A stretch of 64,000 nt of DNA from the human T2T-CHM13v2.0 reference genome, Homo sapiens (GCF_009914755.1 NC_060935.1), one strand, 5' to 3'; shown: positions 5,635 through 12,854, numbered from the stretch's first letter. Numbers and translations: made by a program. The notes: generated by a model from the letters alone, not told the origin.

Positions 5635-6121
5635 TGAAGAAAGAACTAATGAAATCAATTATAACCTAATAGTAGTAGTAATAGAAATTTTAAAATCCTC
5701 TGAAAGTTGCTGCAAAGTGTGAACCCCCACCTTACACTCAAGTTAAAAGGGATTATTAAAAGCCTGTCTTCTCTCTGTGGATAGTGGACCTTATCTATGC
5801 TCCCCAACTCCACATTCCTCAAAGTTTATTACAGGCCCAGTGAGTTCCTGCATGATTGCAGGGTCACAAGACTGATAAGTTTAGGTTGCAAGTCATGTCT
5901 TTCTCAAAATGTAAGAAACAGTGCAACGCCACTTTTGTTTCTTGCTTCTGTAACTCGCTTCTTACCTCACATAATTCCTGCCTTAAAATGTTTAAAAGTA
6001 GGAAAAGCCCTTTGTTTGGGGCTCAGACTTTCTGGACATATGTCCAGCTGGGCCAGTGATGACCTTAATAGACTCTCCTGAACCTTTTTTGGTCTCTCCA
6101 GTCTTTGATTGTCCTGTAACA
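5635..6121 (+). repeat. 5' LTR of provirus
   Basis: tgaagaaag...gtcctgtaaca; about 89% identical by eye to 12370-12854. Confidence 0.95.
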
Positions 6122-6125
6122 TTTC

Positions 6126-6143
6126 TGGGGGCTTATCCGGGAT
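6126..6143 (+). promoter_or_regulatory. Primer-binding site, tRNA-Pro
   Basis: tgggggcttatccgggat vs TGGGGGCTCGTCCGGGAT (complement of tRNA-Pro 3' end); both mismatches fall at the CpG. Confidence 0.9.
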
Positions 6144-8234: not shown

Positions 8235-10715
8235 TCTGCACCTGCTGTGGAAGGCAAGCTACAAAGTGTCAGGAAAAAGGCTCAAATCTGCTTTAAAAGT
8301 TTCCAGTATTTAGGCTTCTATGTAAGCCAAGGGAAAAGATGGCTTGGTGGAGAATGAAAGCAGGCTGTTTGTGCACTTCCTACTCCAACCACCCAGCACC
8401 AGATAAGAAAGTTCCTAGAGACAGCAGGGTTCTGCCACATTTGGACCCTAAGTTTCTTGCTCATGGCTAAGCCATTATATGAAGCCACAAAGTGGGGGGA
8501 AAGGAACCCCTCCTGTGGGGAAAAGAGCAGGTCATGGCCTTCAAAGAAATCAAGAAGGCTTTGATCCAGGCCCTGGCATTAGGACTGCCAGACACACAAA
8601 GCCTTTTTACTGTACGTCCATGCAAGAAAAGGAATAGCTACAGGTGACTTTTGGTACAAACACTAGGATCATGGTATCTGCCCGTGGCATATTTGTCCAA
8701 GCGACAAGACTTGGTGGCTATGGGATGGCCACCTGTTTCAAGGCATTGGCAGCCACTACCACATGTTAGCAGAAGATGCTAACAAGCTCACATTTGGACA
8801 AAGGTTAATAATTTGGGTGCCTCACACGGCCATCACCCTGATGGAGCAGAGGGGGCATCGCTGGTTTTCTAACCCTAGGATTTAAAAATATCAAGGGCTA
8901 TTGTGTGAAAACCCCTACAGAACCCTGGAGACTGTGAACACTCTAAATCCAGCCATACTGCTGCCAGTAGAATGGGTGGAGCATGGAAAGCCCCCATTGT
9001 GAGGCCCAGGGTATCACTGTTGTGTGGAAACAGTGGATGAGGTTTTCTCAAGCCGAGAAGACTTAAAGGACCGGCCCTTAAGAGACCCAGATGTTGAATA
9101 CTTTACTGATGAAAGCAGTTTCATATCTGAAGGTATCAGATGGGCTGGATATGCAGTGGTAACACTGAATTCAGTAGCTGCAGGCCTCCCTCTGCCAGTC
9201 AGAACTTTGGCCCAAAGAGCTGAGCTAATAGCTCTCACTAGAGCACTGCTCTTGGCCAAAGGAAAGTCAGTAAACATCTATACTGTCTCAAGGTATGCTT
9301 TTGCCACTTTGCCTGTTCATGGAGCCATATAAGGAAAGAGCATTATTAACTACTGAAGGAAAGGAAATCAAAAATAAAAAGAAAATAGAGCAGTTCTTAG
9401 AAGCTATATGGGCTCCAAAAGAAGTAGCAGTCATCCATTGCAAAATGCATAAAACAGTAGGAGGTGACGAGACTAGAGGAAATGGAAAGGCAGATAGAGA
9501 AGCCAAAAGAACTGCAATGGCAGAGGTAACTAAGAAGGAAGAGAAAACACTTACCATGCCCTTACTGGAGCTTCCACTTACAGAACCCCTTAACTACTCC
9601 TCTAATGAAAAGGCTTAGTTTGAGAGGAGAGTGGAAGTTACCAGAAAGGAGGTTGGTGGAAGTTCTCAGATGGGAGGCTTGCCATCCCAGAAGCAATAGC
9701 CCTCTGGTTCATAAAGCAGTTTTATCAAGGAACACATATGGGAAAAATTGCATTAGAAACTCTTGTAGGATGGCATTTCTACGTGCCACACCTAACTGCC
9801 ATCACTGGAGCTGTTTCTGAGCAATTCTTGGCTGGTGCCCAAAACAATCCATGGCAGGGGCCAACACGGCCCCCAAGGATTCAAGAAACTGGAGCTACAC
9901 CCTGTGAAAACCTGCTTGTGGATTTTACCAAGCTGTCTCAAGCCAGAGGCTACCGGTACATGCTAGTATTTGTCTGCACTTTCTTATCAGACAATGGCTC
10001 AGCATTTGTGGCAGAAATAGTACAACAGCTAACGCAGATGTTAAAAATCAAATGGAAACTGCATACAGCTTATTGCCAACAGAGTTATGGAAAAGTTGAA
10101 AGAATGAACTGGACACTGAAACAGCTGTTAAAGAAGTTTTGCAAAGAAACTCATCTAAAGTGGGTTCAGGTGCTGCCTATGGTCCTGCTCTGAGTCAGGT
10201 GCACCCCTATTAAATTAACTGGGTATTCACCCTATGAAATAGTGTTCAGCTGACCCCAATCATAACTCTGATAAAAGGGGATTTTAAAAAATTGGGGAAT
10301 TAACCTTAAGAAGGCAAATGCAAGCCTTAGGTGAGGCCATGCAGGAAATACAAGGGTGGGTTAGAGAAAGAATACCTGTTAGCCTCACAGATGCAGTCCA
10401 TCCCTTCCAACCTGGAGACTCTGTCTGGATCAAACGATGGAACCCAACCACTTTTGGGCCTTTATGGGATGGTCCCCATATTGTGATCTTGCCTACCCCC
10501 GCTGCTGTTAAAGTTGCAGGTATCATACCTTGGGTTCTTCATAGCCAGCTGAAACCAACAGCAGCCACTGCCCAGGACCAGTGGACCAGTCAACAATACC
10601 CAGACCACCCAACACGGCTGATCCTACAGTGAAATCAAGCCACTGCTGACAAGAACAACTGAACAACTGCCCTGCTCCAACCACACCAGAGGCTGGGTCA
10701 GTCCACGCATGGCTG
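8235..10715 (+). pseudogene. pol: pol remnant (RT C-terminal part, RNase H, integrase); protease and RT catalytic core deleted
   Basis: Begins at HLLWKA..YKVS..KAQIC, i.e. downstream of YxDD; RNase H YFTDESSFI...AQRAELIALTRAL; IN LLVDFT...SDNGSAF...GKVERMN; GPY/F-type WDGPHIVIL. Confidence 0.9.
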
Positions 10716-10814
10716 AAGCTTAAGGAAACATCGAGCCCTGTTCTAGTCACACAACTGGAAGCTGACTAGTCTACGCATGGCTGAAGCCTGAGAAAGTCAA
10801 TGATAGATAAGTAA

Positions 10815-10934
10815 ATGTGGGTTGAATTTACAAACATAGTTATACTCTTACTTGTACTGACTATTTTGCTGTCATGTTATCTTTGCAAATGCTGCCAAGC
10901 TTGTTGCCCAGAGGGGTGCCCATGCATAGTATAA
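10815..10934 (+). CDS. Intact 39-aa small ORF upstream of and overlapping env: predicted single-pass membrane peptide with Cys-rich tail
   Basis: Manual translation MWVEFTNIVILLLVLTILLSCYLCKCCQACCPEGCPCIV*; below the ORF-track length cut-off; translation in vivo unproven. Confidence 0.5.
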   Translation: MWVEFTNIVILLLVLTILLSCYLCKCCQACCPEGCPCIV

Positions 10935-12336
10935 GTTTAATCATACTAGTAATACTAAAGCCACTGACACTTTCACCTATGGTTATAAATGGGGACCAAG
11001 ATGACTGTCATCACTGTATGATAGAAGCCTGGTCCGGAAAAGGTGTGACTAAAACTCTGTTATATCAGACCTACTATGAGTGTACAGGGACTCATACAGG
11101 AACTTGTGTCTATAACCAGACTTGTTACTCAGTCTGTGATCCTGGAAACAGGCAACCCTAAGTATGTTATGACCCAGAGTTCTTGCCCTGTGATTTCTCA
11201 TTTGAAGTCCAAATTGGCAAATCCCTAATGCCATCATATACAAACCCCACAGAAACCGGGGTCAATAAACTTGTAAACAAAACAGAAGTATTCCCTTACT
11301 TGCATAAAGGGCCTGTCTCCATATATTTTGATGCCTGCCAAGCTGATGTATGTGGAGGTACTAATATAGAAGATCAATGGCCCTGGAAGCCAGAGAACTG
11401 ATGCCACAGGACAGTTTTACCTTGCCTGAATTTGAGGAACACCTGCAGGATTATATTGGATCTGTGGAACAAAAGCTTATCAATTGCTGTCTGATAAATG
11501 GATAGGGGCGAGTGTATTAGGAACAATAAGGCTATCCTTTTTCCTACTCCCACTGCAGCAAGGGAAAAATCTAAGGTATCTGGTCTATGATGAAGGCAGA
11601 AAAAGAGTCTGAAGAAATGTGTTTACAAAAATAAGTACTTGGAAAAAATAAATACTACCATTAAAAGGACATTGAAATAGGGAGCTGGAAAGAGAATGAA
11701 TGGCCCCTTGAAAGAATTAACAAATACTATGTACCAGCCACCTGGGCACAAAATGGGTCATGGAGATACCATACTCCTATTTATATGTTAAGTTGCATCA
11801 CAAGGTTGCAAGCAGTTCTGGAAATTATAGTCATTGAAACAGCCTGAGCCTTAGACTTGCTAGCCATACAGGCGACCCAGATGAGAGATGCCATTTATCA
11901 GAACAGGTTAGCCCTGGATTATCTTTTAGCTTCAGAAGGAGGAGTTTGTGGAAAACTTAATTTAATGAATTGCTTTTTACAAATTGATGACAATGGAAAA
12001 GCTGTCATGAAAATCACTGCCAGGATGCTAAAGTTAGCTCATGTTCTGGCCCAGATGTGGTCTGGTTGGAACCCGAGTTCACCCTTTGGAGGATGGTTTT
12101 CATGGTTTGGAGGCTTTAAAACTTTAATAATAGGCTTTGTGGCCATAATAGGTGTATGCCTCCTGCTTTCTTGTCTCCTGCCACTTCTCATCAGAAGCAT
12201 CCAATCCACCATAGAAGCAATAGTAGCCAGACATACCACCACATGAATAGTGGCTCTGCAAAAGTACCAACCAGTATCCCAAGATGAGTATGTACCCACT
12301 CAAGAAAAAATAGCTAACTGTGGTTCTCTTTACTAA
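10922..12336 (+). pseudogene. env: env remnant, ERV3/HERV-R-like
   Basis: Signal peptide then DCHHCMIEAWSGKGVTKTLLYQTYYECTG...YSVCDPG, resembling the recalled ERV3-1 Env N-terminus; stop at 11159; SU deletions; furin site RV*R; [23 protein letters not shown]; CX6CC changed to CF. Confidence 0.9.
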
Positions 12337-12369
12337 TCTACATTTGTGTCATGCACCAAAAGGGGGGAA

Positions 12370-12854
12370 TGAAGAAGGAATTAATGAAATCAACTATAAC
12401 CTAATAGTAGTAGTAATAGAAGTTTTAAAATCCTCTTAAAGTTGCTGCAAAGTGTGACCTCCCCTTACACTCAAGTTACAAGGGAATATTAACAGCCTGT
12501 CTTCTCTCTGTGGACAGTGGACCTTATCTATGCTCCCCAACTCCACATTCTTCAAAGTTTATTACAGGCCCAGCGAGTTCCTGCACGACTGCAGGGTCAC
12601 AAGACCGATAAGTTTAGGTTGCAAGTCATGTCTTTCTCAAAATGTAAGAAATGTTGCAATGCCGCCGTTGTTTCTTGCTTCTGTAACTTGCTTCCTGCTT
12701 CACGTAGTTCCTGCCTTAAGATATTTAAAAGTAGTAGAAGCTCTTTCTTCGGGGCTCAGGCTTTCTGGACACATGTCCGTCTGGGCTGGTGATCACCTTA
12801 ATGGACTCTCCTGAACATTTATCGATCTCTTTGGTCTTTGATTGTCTCACAACA
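12370..12854 (+). repeat. 3' LTR of provirus
   Basis: tgaagaagg...gtctcacaaca, preceded by polypurine tract. Confidence 0.95.

What the first reader, a model, noticed from the sequence alone, without database searches (positions are those of the whole stretch)
10815..10934. Intact 39-aa transmembrane + Cys-rich micro-ORF between pol and env: candidate unrecognised accessory gene of ERV3-group retroviruses
Seen: ATG 10815 to TAA 10934 encodes MWVEFTNIVILLLVLTILLSCYLCKCCQACCPEGCPCIV. This is a hydrophobic stretch followed by 8 Cys in 17 residues. It overlaps the env ATG (10922) by 13 nt in another frame and is uninterrupted, whereas gag, pol and env all carry stops. Knowledge: simple gammaretroviruses normally have pol abutting env with no gene between them. 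A small membrane protein just upstream of and overlapping env parallels HIV-1 vpu/env, and juxtamembrane Cys clusters are typical palmitoylation sites. Inference: a small viroporin/accessory-type protein translated from the spliced env mRNA; its weak Kozak context (taaATGt) would allow leaky scanning to env. The recalled ERV3-1 Env start (MLGMN) could give C-W-V-stop in the same overlapping frame, but this needs checking at nucleotide level. A 120-nt ORF can also survive by chance.
Basis: partly seen in the sequence, partly recalled or inferred. Interest (0 to 1): 0.8.

Follow-up and report, generated by a model that had tools for sequence, protein, structure and literature searches.

The report
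Conserved tiny membrane-protein gene before env
A 39-codon open frame just upstream of the envelope gene of this decayed human endogenous retrovirus recurs in several related retrovirus families and looks like a lost viral gene for a tiny membrane protein, which was not found described in the papers that could be searched.

Summary
Its length is ordinary: 216 ATG-ORFs of at least 39 aa lie in the window, though only this one combines a hydrophobic stretch with a Cys cluster.

The same 35-46-codon frame sits between pol and env in at least six related provirus groups of this genome. These include the HERV15/RRHERV-I-like copies and the ERV3-1 group. One HERV-E locus lacks it.

Between groups the frame carries coding signatures:
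- Codon position 2 changes half as much as positions 1 and 3 (p about 0.002).
- T sits at position 2 in 73-86% of the TM codons.
- Omega is 0.67 in this frame only (LRT 9.15).
- Group-level indels are in frame.

Individual copies decay neutrally. 18 of 42 are intact, and the ERV3-1 copy is broken.

Best reading (0.6): an ancestral viral gene for a single-pass micro-protein, read as the upstream cistron of env mRNA.

Main doubt: the env splice acceptor is unmapped here, and a conserved pyrimidine-AG lies inside the frame. The Cys-rich tail is not conserved; only C-x-C-x-V-stop is.

The parts
5635..6121 (+). 5' LTR of the provirus that holds the finding
   Evidence: Direct repeat with 12370-12846, 88.9% identity over 479 aligned positions; the end ...GTAACA was read.
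6126..6143 (+). Primer-binding-site-like 18-mer after the 5' LTR
   Evidence: Read. Its likeness to a tRNA-Pro type PBS is recalled, not tested.
10288..10632 (+). Last open fragment of pol (integrase C-terminus), ended here by a premature stop
   Evidence: translation (...PGDSVWIKRW...PTRLILQ*). Between-group divergence has a clear coding periodicity here (positive control, p<0.0002).
10395..10397 (+). CAG homologous to the mapped HERV-E env acceptor SA4; the SA2 homologue about 23 nt downstream has no AG here
   Evidence: SA2 was placed at L091 position 8072 by the published junction probe, and SA4 lies 18 nt upstream. The homology comes from the PGD.VW alignment and the position. The 3' splice-site context here is weak.
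10714..10716 (+). TGA in the pol frame, the position where pol ends (...THG*) in related copies; probable original pol stop
   Evidence: translations of L070-L090 end pol at ...STHG*. It is in the same frame as 10288-10632. Inference.
10701..10796 (+). Two copies (10701-10728 and 10769-10796) of a conserved motif, each with a 4-codon ATG frame (MAEA*), in the stretch between pol and the micro-ORF
   Evidence: The stretch 10636-10814 is as conserved between groups as pol (net divergence 0.096 against 0.106). No Rfam match and no unusual fold (z 0.45).
10812..10814 (+). In-frame TAA directly before the micro-ORF start, kept in most copies of all groups
10815..10934 (+). The micro-ORF: 39 codons plus TAA. 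A hydrophobic helix (about residues 5-23) is followed by a Cys-rich tail ending CPCIV.
   Evidence: Homologous frames occur in six groups. The AF2 model has a helix at 2-30, with pLDDT 88-91 over residues 1-20.
10855..10911 (+). Rival reading of the same bases: a branch-point-like TACTGAC (10855-10861), a T-rich tract and AG 10910-10911, as a possible env 3' splice site inside the ORF
   Evidence: The AG column is present in 100% of A, 75% of B, 100% of C, 100% of D and 46% of E copies (6 of 13 in E). Scoring used a crude, recalled consensus.
10922..11161 (+). Start of env (signal peptide and SU N-terminus with a CHHC motif), first open fragment
   Evidence: It is 58% identical over 75 residues to the 615-aa open env on C7 (L075).
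11848..12246 (+). env TM subunit fragment with its own membrane anchor, unrelated to the micro-ORF
   Evidence: BLASTP against the micro-ORF finds no alignment at E<=100.
12370..12853 (+). 3' LTR, preceded by a purine tract at 12359-12369

Best explanation
The frame is the decayed copy of a real gene of the extinct viruses that founded this group of class I (gamma-like) endogenous retroviruses. It was a 35-46-codon cistron between pol and env. It encoded a single-pass membrane micro-protein: a short acidic N-terminus (M-W-x-E/Q/K), a helix of about 17 hydrophobic residues, and a short tail ending C-x-C-x-V-stop. Most likely it was the first sizeable cistron on the spliced env mRNA. Its weak start context would let ribosomes scan past it. 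Its stop lies from 19 nt after to 28 nt before the start of the env ATG, so env could be read by leaky scanning or by re-initiation, much as vpu and env share one mRNA. In the human genome the copies, this one included, are relics that decay neutrally. Shown: recurrence of the frame, coding-type constraint on the hydrophobic part, in-frame group-level length changes, no known family, and neutral decay of copies. Inferred: that it was translated, from which mRNA, its membrane topology, and any activity.
For: (1) Recurrence. Searches of the window's own genome found 42 DNA matches, 36 peptide matches and, with a group-E peptide, 91 matches at E<=1. In 42 independent held copies from five groups (A 8, B 4, C 15, D 2, E 13), plus one group-F copy, the same frame starts at an aligned ATG after a TAA. 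It ends at or next to the env ATG.
(2) These groups are deeply diverged. The env N-termini are 47-58% identical to the window's, and raw ORF nucleotide differences between groups reach 0.3-0.6 per site.
(3) Periodicity. Net between-group divergence is 0.332, 0.187 and 0.349 at codon positions 1, 2 and 3. The permutation p over any phase is 0.002 (30 copies without frameshift; 12 frameshifted copies were dropped). With all 42 copies, codons 2-21 give 0.378, 0.100 and 0.254, p=0.0014.
(4) T occupies codon position 2 in 73-86% of codons 5-21, against 26-35% at positions 1 and 3. That is the NTN pattern of a hydrophobic helix, which a plain pyrimidine tract would not produce.
(5) Codon model: omega is 0.67 in this frame against 1.02 and 1.06 in the two shifted frames. 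Against omega=1, 2dlnL is 9.15 in this frame and 0.02 and 0.39 in the others. NG86 pN/pS between groups is 0.33-0.59, against 0.44-0.72 and 0.65-1.30.
(6) Length differences between groups are in frame (+9 nt, -6 nt). Single-copy indels are mostly 1-5 nt, with one of 23 nt.
(7) Simulated unconstrained drift at p=0.2-0.4 keeps the ATG, an open frame and a hydrophobic stretch in only 0.5-17% of trials per lineage.
(8) In the one group-F copy the ...PCWV-stop end is kept although env starts 28 nt further on, so that end is not explained by overlap with env alone.
(9) The only experimentally mapped env acceptors in a relative lie about 250-270 nt upstream of env, inside the integrase coding region (HERV-E ERVE-4, SA2/SA4; passages of PMC13754704; mapped). 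If that position is conserved, the ORF lies on the env mRNA.
(10) AF2 with the 15-sequence alignment gives a helix at 2-30, with pLDDT 88-91 over the first 20 residues.
Against: No transcript, ribosome or peptide evidence was available for any copy. The env acceptor of the ORF-bearing groups is unmapped. The HERV-E SA2 position has no AG in them, and the SA4 homologue has a poor context. A pyrimidine tract plus AG inside the ORF is the best-scoring conserved acceptor candidate. If the acceptor lies upstream in pol, six other ATGs precede the ORF in the window. The C-terminal half (codons 22-39) shows no codon periodicity (p=0.5), and its residues differ between groups (Cys-rich in A-C, Pro-rich in D-F). 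Omega of 0.67 is only moderately below 1, and frame 1 also gives NG86 ratios below 1. The tests use copies from one genome, so copies within a group are not independent, and only about five or six group lineages carry the signal. One HERV-E locus lacks the ORF. The host did not keep it: the ERV3-1 copy has two in-frame stops and a one-base length difference while its env is open.
Confidence: 0.6

Rival explanations
1. It is a regulatory upstream ORF. The frame was translated, but its role was to set how much env is made, by occupying scanning ribosomes or by peptide-dependent stalling at its stop next to the env ATG. The peptide had no function of its own in trans.
For: The start context is weak. 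The stop is tightly coupled to the env start in every group: it overlaps by 13-19 nt in A-C, env starts 2 nt after it in D and E, and 28 nt after it in F. The most conserved residues after M1 and W2 are at the very C-terminus next to the stop (C35, C37 and V39 at 90% or more), as in peptide-dependent viral and cellular uORFs (recalled). The C-terminal half lacks ordinary codon periodicity.
Against: A purely regulatory uORF gives no reason to keep a helix of about 17 hydrophobic residues through 25-50% nucleotide divergence. The rival also needs the same unproven mRNA. The two roles do not exclude each other.
Confidence: 0.15
2. It is a by-product of the env 3' splice site and was never translated. 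The T-rich 'TM' is the branch-point and pyrimidine-tract region, the AG at 10910-10911 is the env acceptor, and the open frame is what a pyrimidine-rich stretch gives for free.
For: TACTGAC at 10855-10861, a T-rich tract and then AG. The AG column is kept in 75-100% of copies in groups A-D and is the best-scoring conserved acceptor candidate in the 650 nt upstream of env. The homologues of the mapped HERV-E acceptors look weak here. An acceptor there would give an env mRNA without upstream ATGs, whereas an upstream acceptor gives six in the window.
Against: A pyrimidine tract has no reason for three-base periodicity, yet T is 73-86% at codon position 2 against 26-35% at positions 1 and 3, and position 2 diverges least. 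Omega is below 1 only in this frame. The ATG, the preceding TAA and the stop are kept, and group-level indels are in frame. In group E only 6 of 13 copies have the AG. In one E subgroup the variants (CGG, TGG, CAG) fit an ancestral CpG without AG (inference). The acceptor scoring used a crude consensus recalled from memory. An acceptor inside a coding frame would also be compatible with the best explanation if a second, upstream acceptor exists.
Confidence: 0.2
3. It is a chance open frame with no constraint of any kind.
For: There are 216 ORFs of this length or longer in the window. Copies decay as expected for neutral sequence.
Against: The frame recurs in six diverged groups. The periodicity (p about 0.002), the frame-specific omega, and the simulated survival of 0.5-17% per lineage argue against it.
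Confidence: 0.03

Closest known systems
HIV-1/SIVcpz Vpu (lentiviral accessory membrane protein, Pfam PF00558)
   Same: A small protein with one N-terminal membrane helix, encoded directly upstream of and overlapping env. It has a weak start codon that lets env be read from the same mRNA. The gene position and helix were shown here; the shared mRNA was not.
   Different: No sequence likeness (no Vpu hit at E<=10). It is half the size, with 39-46 aa against about 80 (recalled). It has no room for Vpu's two cytoplasmic helices and phosphoserine motif. The host virus is a gamma-like 'simple' retrovirus.
Bovine papillomavirus E5 and similar very small viral transmembrane proteins (recalled, not tested)
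   Same: About 40-44 residues, almost entirely one hydrophobic helix, with a short tail carrying a Cys-x-Cys pair near the C-terminus.
   Different: There is no homology test beyond Pfam (no E5 family hit). It is a different virus class. Dimerisation or receptor binding is not tested here.
Peptide-dependent viral uORFs, for example the uORF upstream of a cytomegalovirus glycoprotein gene (recalled)
   Same: A short frame upstream of a viral glycoprotein gene, with conserved residues at the C-terminal end next to the stop.
   Different: Those peptides are not hydrophobic helices. Here the strongest constraint is on hydrophobicity.
Cys-rich juxtamembrane tails of small viral membrane proteins (coronavirus E, reovirus FAST p10; recalled)
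   Same: Groups A-C have a helix followed by clustered Cys, 8 in 17 residues in the window. The group-F peptide gives a weak, sub-threshold Orthoreo_P10 hit (E 0.2, 12.1 bits against a cut-off of 21.4).
   Different: The Cys cluster is not conserved across groups. All Pfam hits are below their cut-offs and lie in the helix only.
HERV-E (ERVE-4 locus), the nearest relative with mapped env mRNAs
   Same: The same pol C-terminus and the same conserved motif at the pol/env border. Its env acceptors SA2 and SA4 lie in the integrase coding region.
   Different: It has no micro-ORF. Env starts about 10 nt after the pol stop, at the ATG of the motif that is duplicated in the ORF-bearing groups. Only one HERV-E locus was examined.

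Membership tests
Vpu (PF00558) | Sequence match to the family profile | tested here: not met
   hmmscan of four natural peptides (groups A, C, E, F) at E<=10 gave no Vpu hit.
Vpu-like arrangement (works-like, not membership) | Gene directly upstream of and overlapping or abutting env, with one N-terminal membrane helix | tested here: met
   The hydrophobic stretch is, and the helix at 2-30.
Vpu-like arrangement (works-like, not membership) | Both cistrons on one spliced mRNA, with env read by leaky scanning | not testable with these tools
   No transcript data for ORF-bearing loci. There is only the analogy to the mapped HERV-E acceptors and the weak start context.
Viroporin | Homo-oligomeric channel-forming helix | not tested
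   The complex-prediction job (4 copies) was never accepted because the queue was full.
Protein-coding gene under purifying selection | Three-base periodicity of substitutions and omega below 1 in the proposed frame only | tested here: met
   (TM half only). Pol was the positive control.
Protein-coding gene under purifying selection | Frame kept open in present-day copies beyond the neutral expectation (host-level selection) | tested here: not met
   18 of 42 copies are intact. 18 of 29 copies without frameshift (0.62) compare with a simulated 0.40-0.68. The ERV3-1 copy is broken.
Any Pfam family | Hit above the curated cut-off | tested here: not met
   The best hits are 13.4-13.6 bits against cut-offs of 24-29, all in the helix.
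env 3' splice site (branch point, pyrimidine tract, AG) | AG after a pyrimidine tract conserved in all groups | tested here: inconclusive
   The AG is present in 100, 75, 100, 100 and 46% of copies in A to E. The scoring scheme was crude and recalled.
env 3' splice site (branch point, pyrimidine tract, AG) | Experimentally mapped exon junction | not testable with these tools
   The papers that may hold the ERV3 junction were not held.
Conserved-peptide regulatory uORF | Conservation concentrated at the C-terminus next to the stop; effect on the downstream cistron | tested here: inconclusive
   C35, C37 and V39 are at 90% or more, but the strongest coding constraint lies in the helix. The effect on env was not testable.

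The most novel reading that the evidence does not exclude
A whole supergroup of supposedly 'simple' gamma-like retroviruses carried a seventh gene. The supergroup comprises the ERV3/HERV-R group, HERV15/RRHERV-I and at least four further groups, but not HERV-E. The gene encoded a roughly 40-residue single-pass membrane protein, made from the env mRNA ahead of env. That would be a functional counterpart of Vpu or of the E5-type micro-proteins, arisen independently, which acted in trans on host membranes or host restriction factors. Its gain would coincide with the duplication of the pol/env border motif that separates these groups from HERV-E.
Probability: 0.35. Interest if true: 0.85.

Novelty: new variant of a known kind. 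Interest (0 to 1): 0.68.

Why it matters
Gamma-type retroviruses and their endogenous relatives are textbook 'simple' retroviruses with only gag, pro, pol and env. A conserved extra cistron for a micro-protein in the ERV3/HERV15 lineage would change that picture. It would add a new family to the small viral membrane proteins. It would also explain why about 200 nt separate pol and env in these elements but not in HERV-E. On the practical side, dozens of human loci still carry an open copy. Some lie in transcribed proviruses, so the peptide is a candidate for non-canonical translation products and tumour or placental antigens. The question can be tested directly with existing RNA-seq, Ribo-seq and immunopeptidome data.

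Tried and rejected
- Literature on the ERV3 or HERV-E env acceptor: searches gave no position for ERV3. Five papers that may hold it were not held: Kato 1987, Kannan 1991, Andersson 2005 and Cherkasova 2016. Only passages of PMC13754704 gave usable junction probes, and those are for HERV-E. That paper's figure with coordinates and its supplements were not seen.
- Crude 3' splice-site scoring of the 650 nt before env did not settle the acceptor.
- Origin from the env membrane anchor was rejected: BLASTP finds no alignment at E<=100.
- Known families: Pfam gave nothing above cut-off.
- The profile search of 1.84 billion representatives gave 1 hit. P0002 is a 163-aa predicted protein that is itself a read-through of such an ERV copy.
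- The word-index search at near length found none; longer and shorter lengths were not searched.
- The ESM Atlas best score was 0.79, which is uninformative.
- Rfam on 10300-11100 gave 0 matches at E<=1. The fold of 10660-10830 is no better than shuffles (z 0.45). TRF does not report the 68-nt spaced motif pair.
- Viral contig collection: the peptide and the alignment are too short or too varied for the tool.
There is therefore no result of any kind.
The intact group-E hits and the 47-aa group-F hits were affected. Group F therefore rests on one 261-nt locus.

Full report
1. THE OBSERVATION
Window 10815-10934 (+) is an ATG-to-TAA frame of 39 codons. It encodes MWVEFTNIVILLLVLTILLSCYLCKCCQACCPEGCPCIV.

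- The stop-to-stop frame begins at 10815, so a TAA (10812-10814) lies directly before the ATG.
- The env-frame ATG at 10922 lies 13 nt inside the frame's end, in another frame.
- The start context is weak, with T at -3 and T at +4.
- Gag, pol and env are broken into many fragments.

The element is a provirus with LTRs at 5635-6121 and 12370-12853, 88.9% identical. An 18-nt primer-binding-like site lies at 6126-6143. I recall that site as the tRNA-Pro type, but did not test it.

The length of the frame means nothing: the window has 216 ATG-ORFs of at least 39 aa. Only this one joins a hydrophobic stretch to a Cys cluster.

2. THE SAME FRAME IN RELATED PROVIRUSES
The window's own genome (24 contigs, 3.1 Gb) could be searched.

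- The interval 10640-11100 gave 42 matches.
- The peptide gave 36 matches at E<=10.
- The env N-terminus gave 150 scored matches.

From these I held 42 independent copies after setting aside duplicate fetches and obvious segmental duplicates. The duplicates were the five acrocentric copies, the chrY and chrX pairs, and the X/Y pair.

| Group | Copies | Notes |
|---|---|---|
| A | 8 | The window's family; 83-93% DNA identity |
| B | 4 | About 77% identity |
| C | 15 | 72-75% identity |
| D | 2 | |
| E | 13 | Env N-terminus 49-60% identical to the window's |
| F | 1 | One 261-nt locus (L092) |

Group C includes two same-strand chrY copies 800 kb apart. These fit the HERV15/RRHERV-I pair of the AZFa region named in a passage of PMC4724089. 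That assignment is an inference.

Group E includes the locus on C7 with a 615-aa open env that starts MLGMNMLL. I take this to be ERV3-1: a passage of PMC5775217 says only the 7q11 copy has a complete env frame, and the name is otherwise recalled.

In every group an aligned ATG after a TAA opens a frame of 35-46 codons. It runs through a hydrophobic stretch and stops at or next to the env start. Natural examples:

- Group B: MWIEFASVVILLLVLIVLLSCYLCNCCRTCCPGGCPCIV
- Group C: MWIQFISLVIILSILIVLLLCYYCKYCKRLCPEEGLPCPCVV
- Group D: MWIEVLSLVAILVILLVLLLCYNFCQSLLPGKDLFCPYFV
- Group E: MWLEILSLVIFLIILIVILLFCCFAQPPPLGKNLFCPCWV
- Group F: MAKSNNVILWIAIGALIIFFLIIISLFYCFGQLPSPRKHLLYPCWV

A search with the group-E peptide gave 91 matches at E<=1. 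By my hand count, at least 26 are full-length without a stop. They include a set of about 47-aa frames like the group-F copy.

One HERV-E locus lacks the frame. It was identified as ERVE-4 because 8 of 12 published primers and probes match it exactly, while the rest span junctions or did not match. There, env starts about 10 nt after the pol stop.

However, that copy has two in-frame stops and a one-base length difference.

3. IS IT CODING?
I compared copies only. To separate the viral phase from decay after integration, I subtracted mean within-group differences from between-group differences.

(a) Codon positions. In 30 copies without frameshift (12 frameshifted copies left out), net divergence is 0.332, 0.187 and 0.349 at positions 1, 2 and 3. 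Only 0.2% of label shuffles reach that contrast in any phase. Within groups A and C the three positions are alike: 0.111, 0.111, 0.089 and 0.141, 0.110, 0.133.

(b) All 42 copies, on an independent nucleotide alignment:

| Region | Net divergence (pos 1, 2, 3) | p |
|---|---|---|
| ORF codons 2-21 | 0.378, 0.100, 0.254 | 0.0014 |
| ORF codons 22-39 | no periodicity | 0.5 |
| Pol C-terminus (positive control) | 0.077, 0.041, 0.200 | <0.0002 |

(c) T content. T fills codon position 2 in 73-86% of codons 5-21, against 26-35% at the other positions.

(d) NG86 pN/pS between groups is 0.33-0.59 in the ORF frame, 0.44-0.72 in frame +1 and 0.65-1.30 in frame +2. Synonymous differences in the ORF frame are near saturation.

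(e) A codon model (GY+F1X4, ML tree) gives omega 0.67, 1.02 and 1.06 for the three frames. Fixing omega at 1, with kappa fixed at 7, costs 2dlnL = 9.15, 0.02 and 0.39.

(f) Group-level length differences are +9 and -6 nt. Single copies also show in-frame losses of 3, 9 and 15 nt. The 13 frameshifted copies have region lengths of 116-143 nt that are not multiples of three.

(g) Random substitution at p=0.2-0.4 keeps the ATG, an open frame and a hydrophobic stretch in 0.5-17% of trials. All six groups have them.

The env frame cannot explain the periodicity. It has no ATG before 10874 in the window, and in group E a stop in the env frame lies about 10 codons before the env ATG. Pol ends about 100 nt upstream.

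I conclude that the hydrophobic half was under protein-level constraint while these viruses diversified. The second half is constrained differently. M1, W2, L12, L15, C35, C37 and V39 are kept in at least 90% of 15 natural open copies.

4. NO SELECTION IN THE HOST
18 of 42 copies are intact: A 3/8, B 3/4, C 6/15, D 1/2, E 5/13. One 'intact' group-E copy ends two codons early.

- 13 copies are frameshifted.
- 9 have a stop at codon 2, where the Trp codon has changed to a stop.
- Several have lost the ATG.

Among the 29 copies without frameshift, 18 are open (0.62). Substitution-only simulations at 5-11% divergence give 0.40-0.68. The window's open copy is therefore a survivor by chance. The broken copy beside the host-maintained ERV3-1 env argues against any present function.

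5. WHICH mRNA?
This is the weak point.

For HERV-E, passages of PMC13754704 describe the singly spliced env transcript (SD1/SA2) and a variant 18 nt longer (SA4). The last 16 nt of the SA2 junction probe map to L091 position 8072, after ...TTTCTCCCCAG. That lies inside the integrase coding region (...FSPG|DRVW), about 250 nt upstream of the env ATG.

If the ORF-bearing groups splice at the homologous place (window about 10397-10420), the micro-ORF lies on the env mRNA. But the SA2 position has no AG in them, and the SA4 homologue has a poor pyrimidine tract. Six other ATGs would also precede the ORF in the window, two of them 4-codon frames in the repeated motif. HERV-E's own env mRNA also carries upstream ATGs (read), so this is not disqualifying.

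Inside the ORF, a T-rich tract followed by AG (10910-10911) is the best conserved acceptor candidate by a crude, recalled scoring. It is present in 100, 75, 100, 100 and 46% of copies in groups A-E. In one group-E subgroup the variants at that site (CGG in 1, TGG in 3, CAG in 2 of 6) fit an ancestral CpG without AG. In the other subgroup CAG prevails (inference).

An acceptor there would put the ORF's ATG in the intron. That reading cannot explain the periodicity, but it could coexist with a second, upstream acceptor. No transcript data were within reach, and the older ERV3 papers were not held.

6. WHAT KIND OF PROTEIN?
- AF2 on the 15-sequence alignment gives one helix (residues 2-30; pLDDT 88-91 over residues 1-20, 52-66 over the tail).
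- The short N-terminus carries one acidic residue. Basic residues follow the helix in most groups. By the positive-inside rule (established knowledge) the tail would be cytoplasmic. This is inference.
- No Pfam family reaches its cut-off. Profile, word-index and Atlas searches gave no relatives, apart from one predicted protein that is itself an ERV read-through.
- It is not a copy of the env membrane anchor.

7. COMPARISON WITH KNOWN SYSTEMS
In gene position, size class and start context it works like Vpu, but it is not a Vpu family member. In size and in the C-terminal Cys-x-Cys pair it resembles papillomavirus E5-type micro-proteins (recalled). The tight stop-to-env coupling and the conserved C-terminus also fit a peptide-dependent uORF.

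I found no description of it. The searches and a search for four peptide words (0 papers) returned nothing relevant. The HERV classification paper (PMC4724089, passages only) mentions no extra ORF for this supergroup. Subscription-journal papers and supplements were not covered, so prior mention cannot be excluded.

8. VERDICT

| Reading | Probability |
|---|---|
| Relic of a genuine viral micro-protein gene shared by the ERV3/HERV15-type groups | 0.6 |
| Purely regulatory uORF | 0.15 |
| Untranslated by-product of the env acceptor | 0.2 |
| Chance | 0.03 |

Interest is 0.68.

Noticed in passing
window 10701-10728 and 10769-10796: A 28-nt motif occurs twice, 68 nt apart, between pol and the micro-ORF. 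Each copy holds a 4-codon frame, MAEA-stop. The first copy contains the TGA where pol ends in related copies. In the HERV-E locus (L091, about 8325) the ATG of the single copy of this motif is the env start. The ORF-bearing groups therefore look like HERV-E-type genomes with a duplicated border motif plus about 150 nt of new sequence. The stretch is as conserved between groups as pol (0.096 against 0.106) but has no Rfam match or unusual fold.
   Followed up: partly
codon 2 of the micro-ORF in held loci (window-equivalent 10818-10820): 9 of 42 copies carry a stop at codon 2, where the Trp codon has changed to TAG, TGA or TAA. These are G-to-A changes, the kind that cytidine-deaminase editing or plain transition bias would give.
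   Followed up: no
window 6126-6143: The primer-binding-like site of this provirus looks like a tRNA-Pro type with two CpG-decay differences (recalled likeness). The window's family (group A, 8 copies found) would then be a distinct family, not ERV3 proper.
   Followed up: no
window 10874 and 10889: Two further ATGs in the env frame lie upstream of 10922. They would add 16 or 11 residues to the env leader, and that part would be read in two frames together with the micro-ORF tail. Groups A-C have an upstream env-frame ATG, group D's is closed by a stop, and group E has none.
   Followed up: partly
outside the window: G000 C11:58868098-58868217 (-), about 90 kb downstream: Another provirus of group E type with an open 40-codon copy of the frame. 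Its DNA was not fetched.
   Followed up: no
P0002 (library representative, 163 aa): A predicted protein in the public library reads from upstream sequence through a group-E-like micro-ORF into env-like sequence. It shows how such copies get annotated as hypothetical proteins.
   Followed up: no
window 11161-11848: The env of this provirus spans only about 1.3 kb from ATG to stop and is open only in fragments (10922-11161, 11162-11401, 11848-12246). Part of SU therefore seems to be missing.
   Followed up: no
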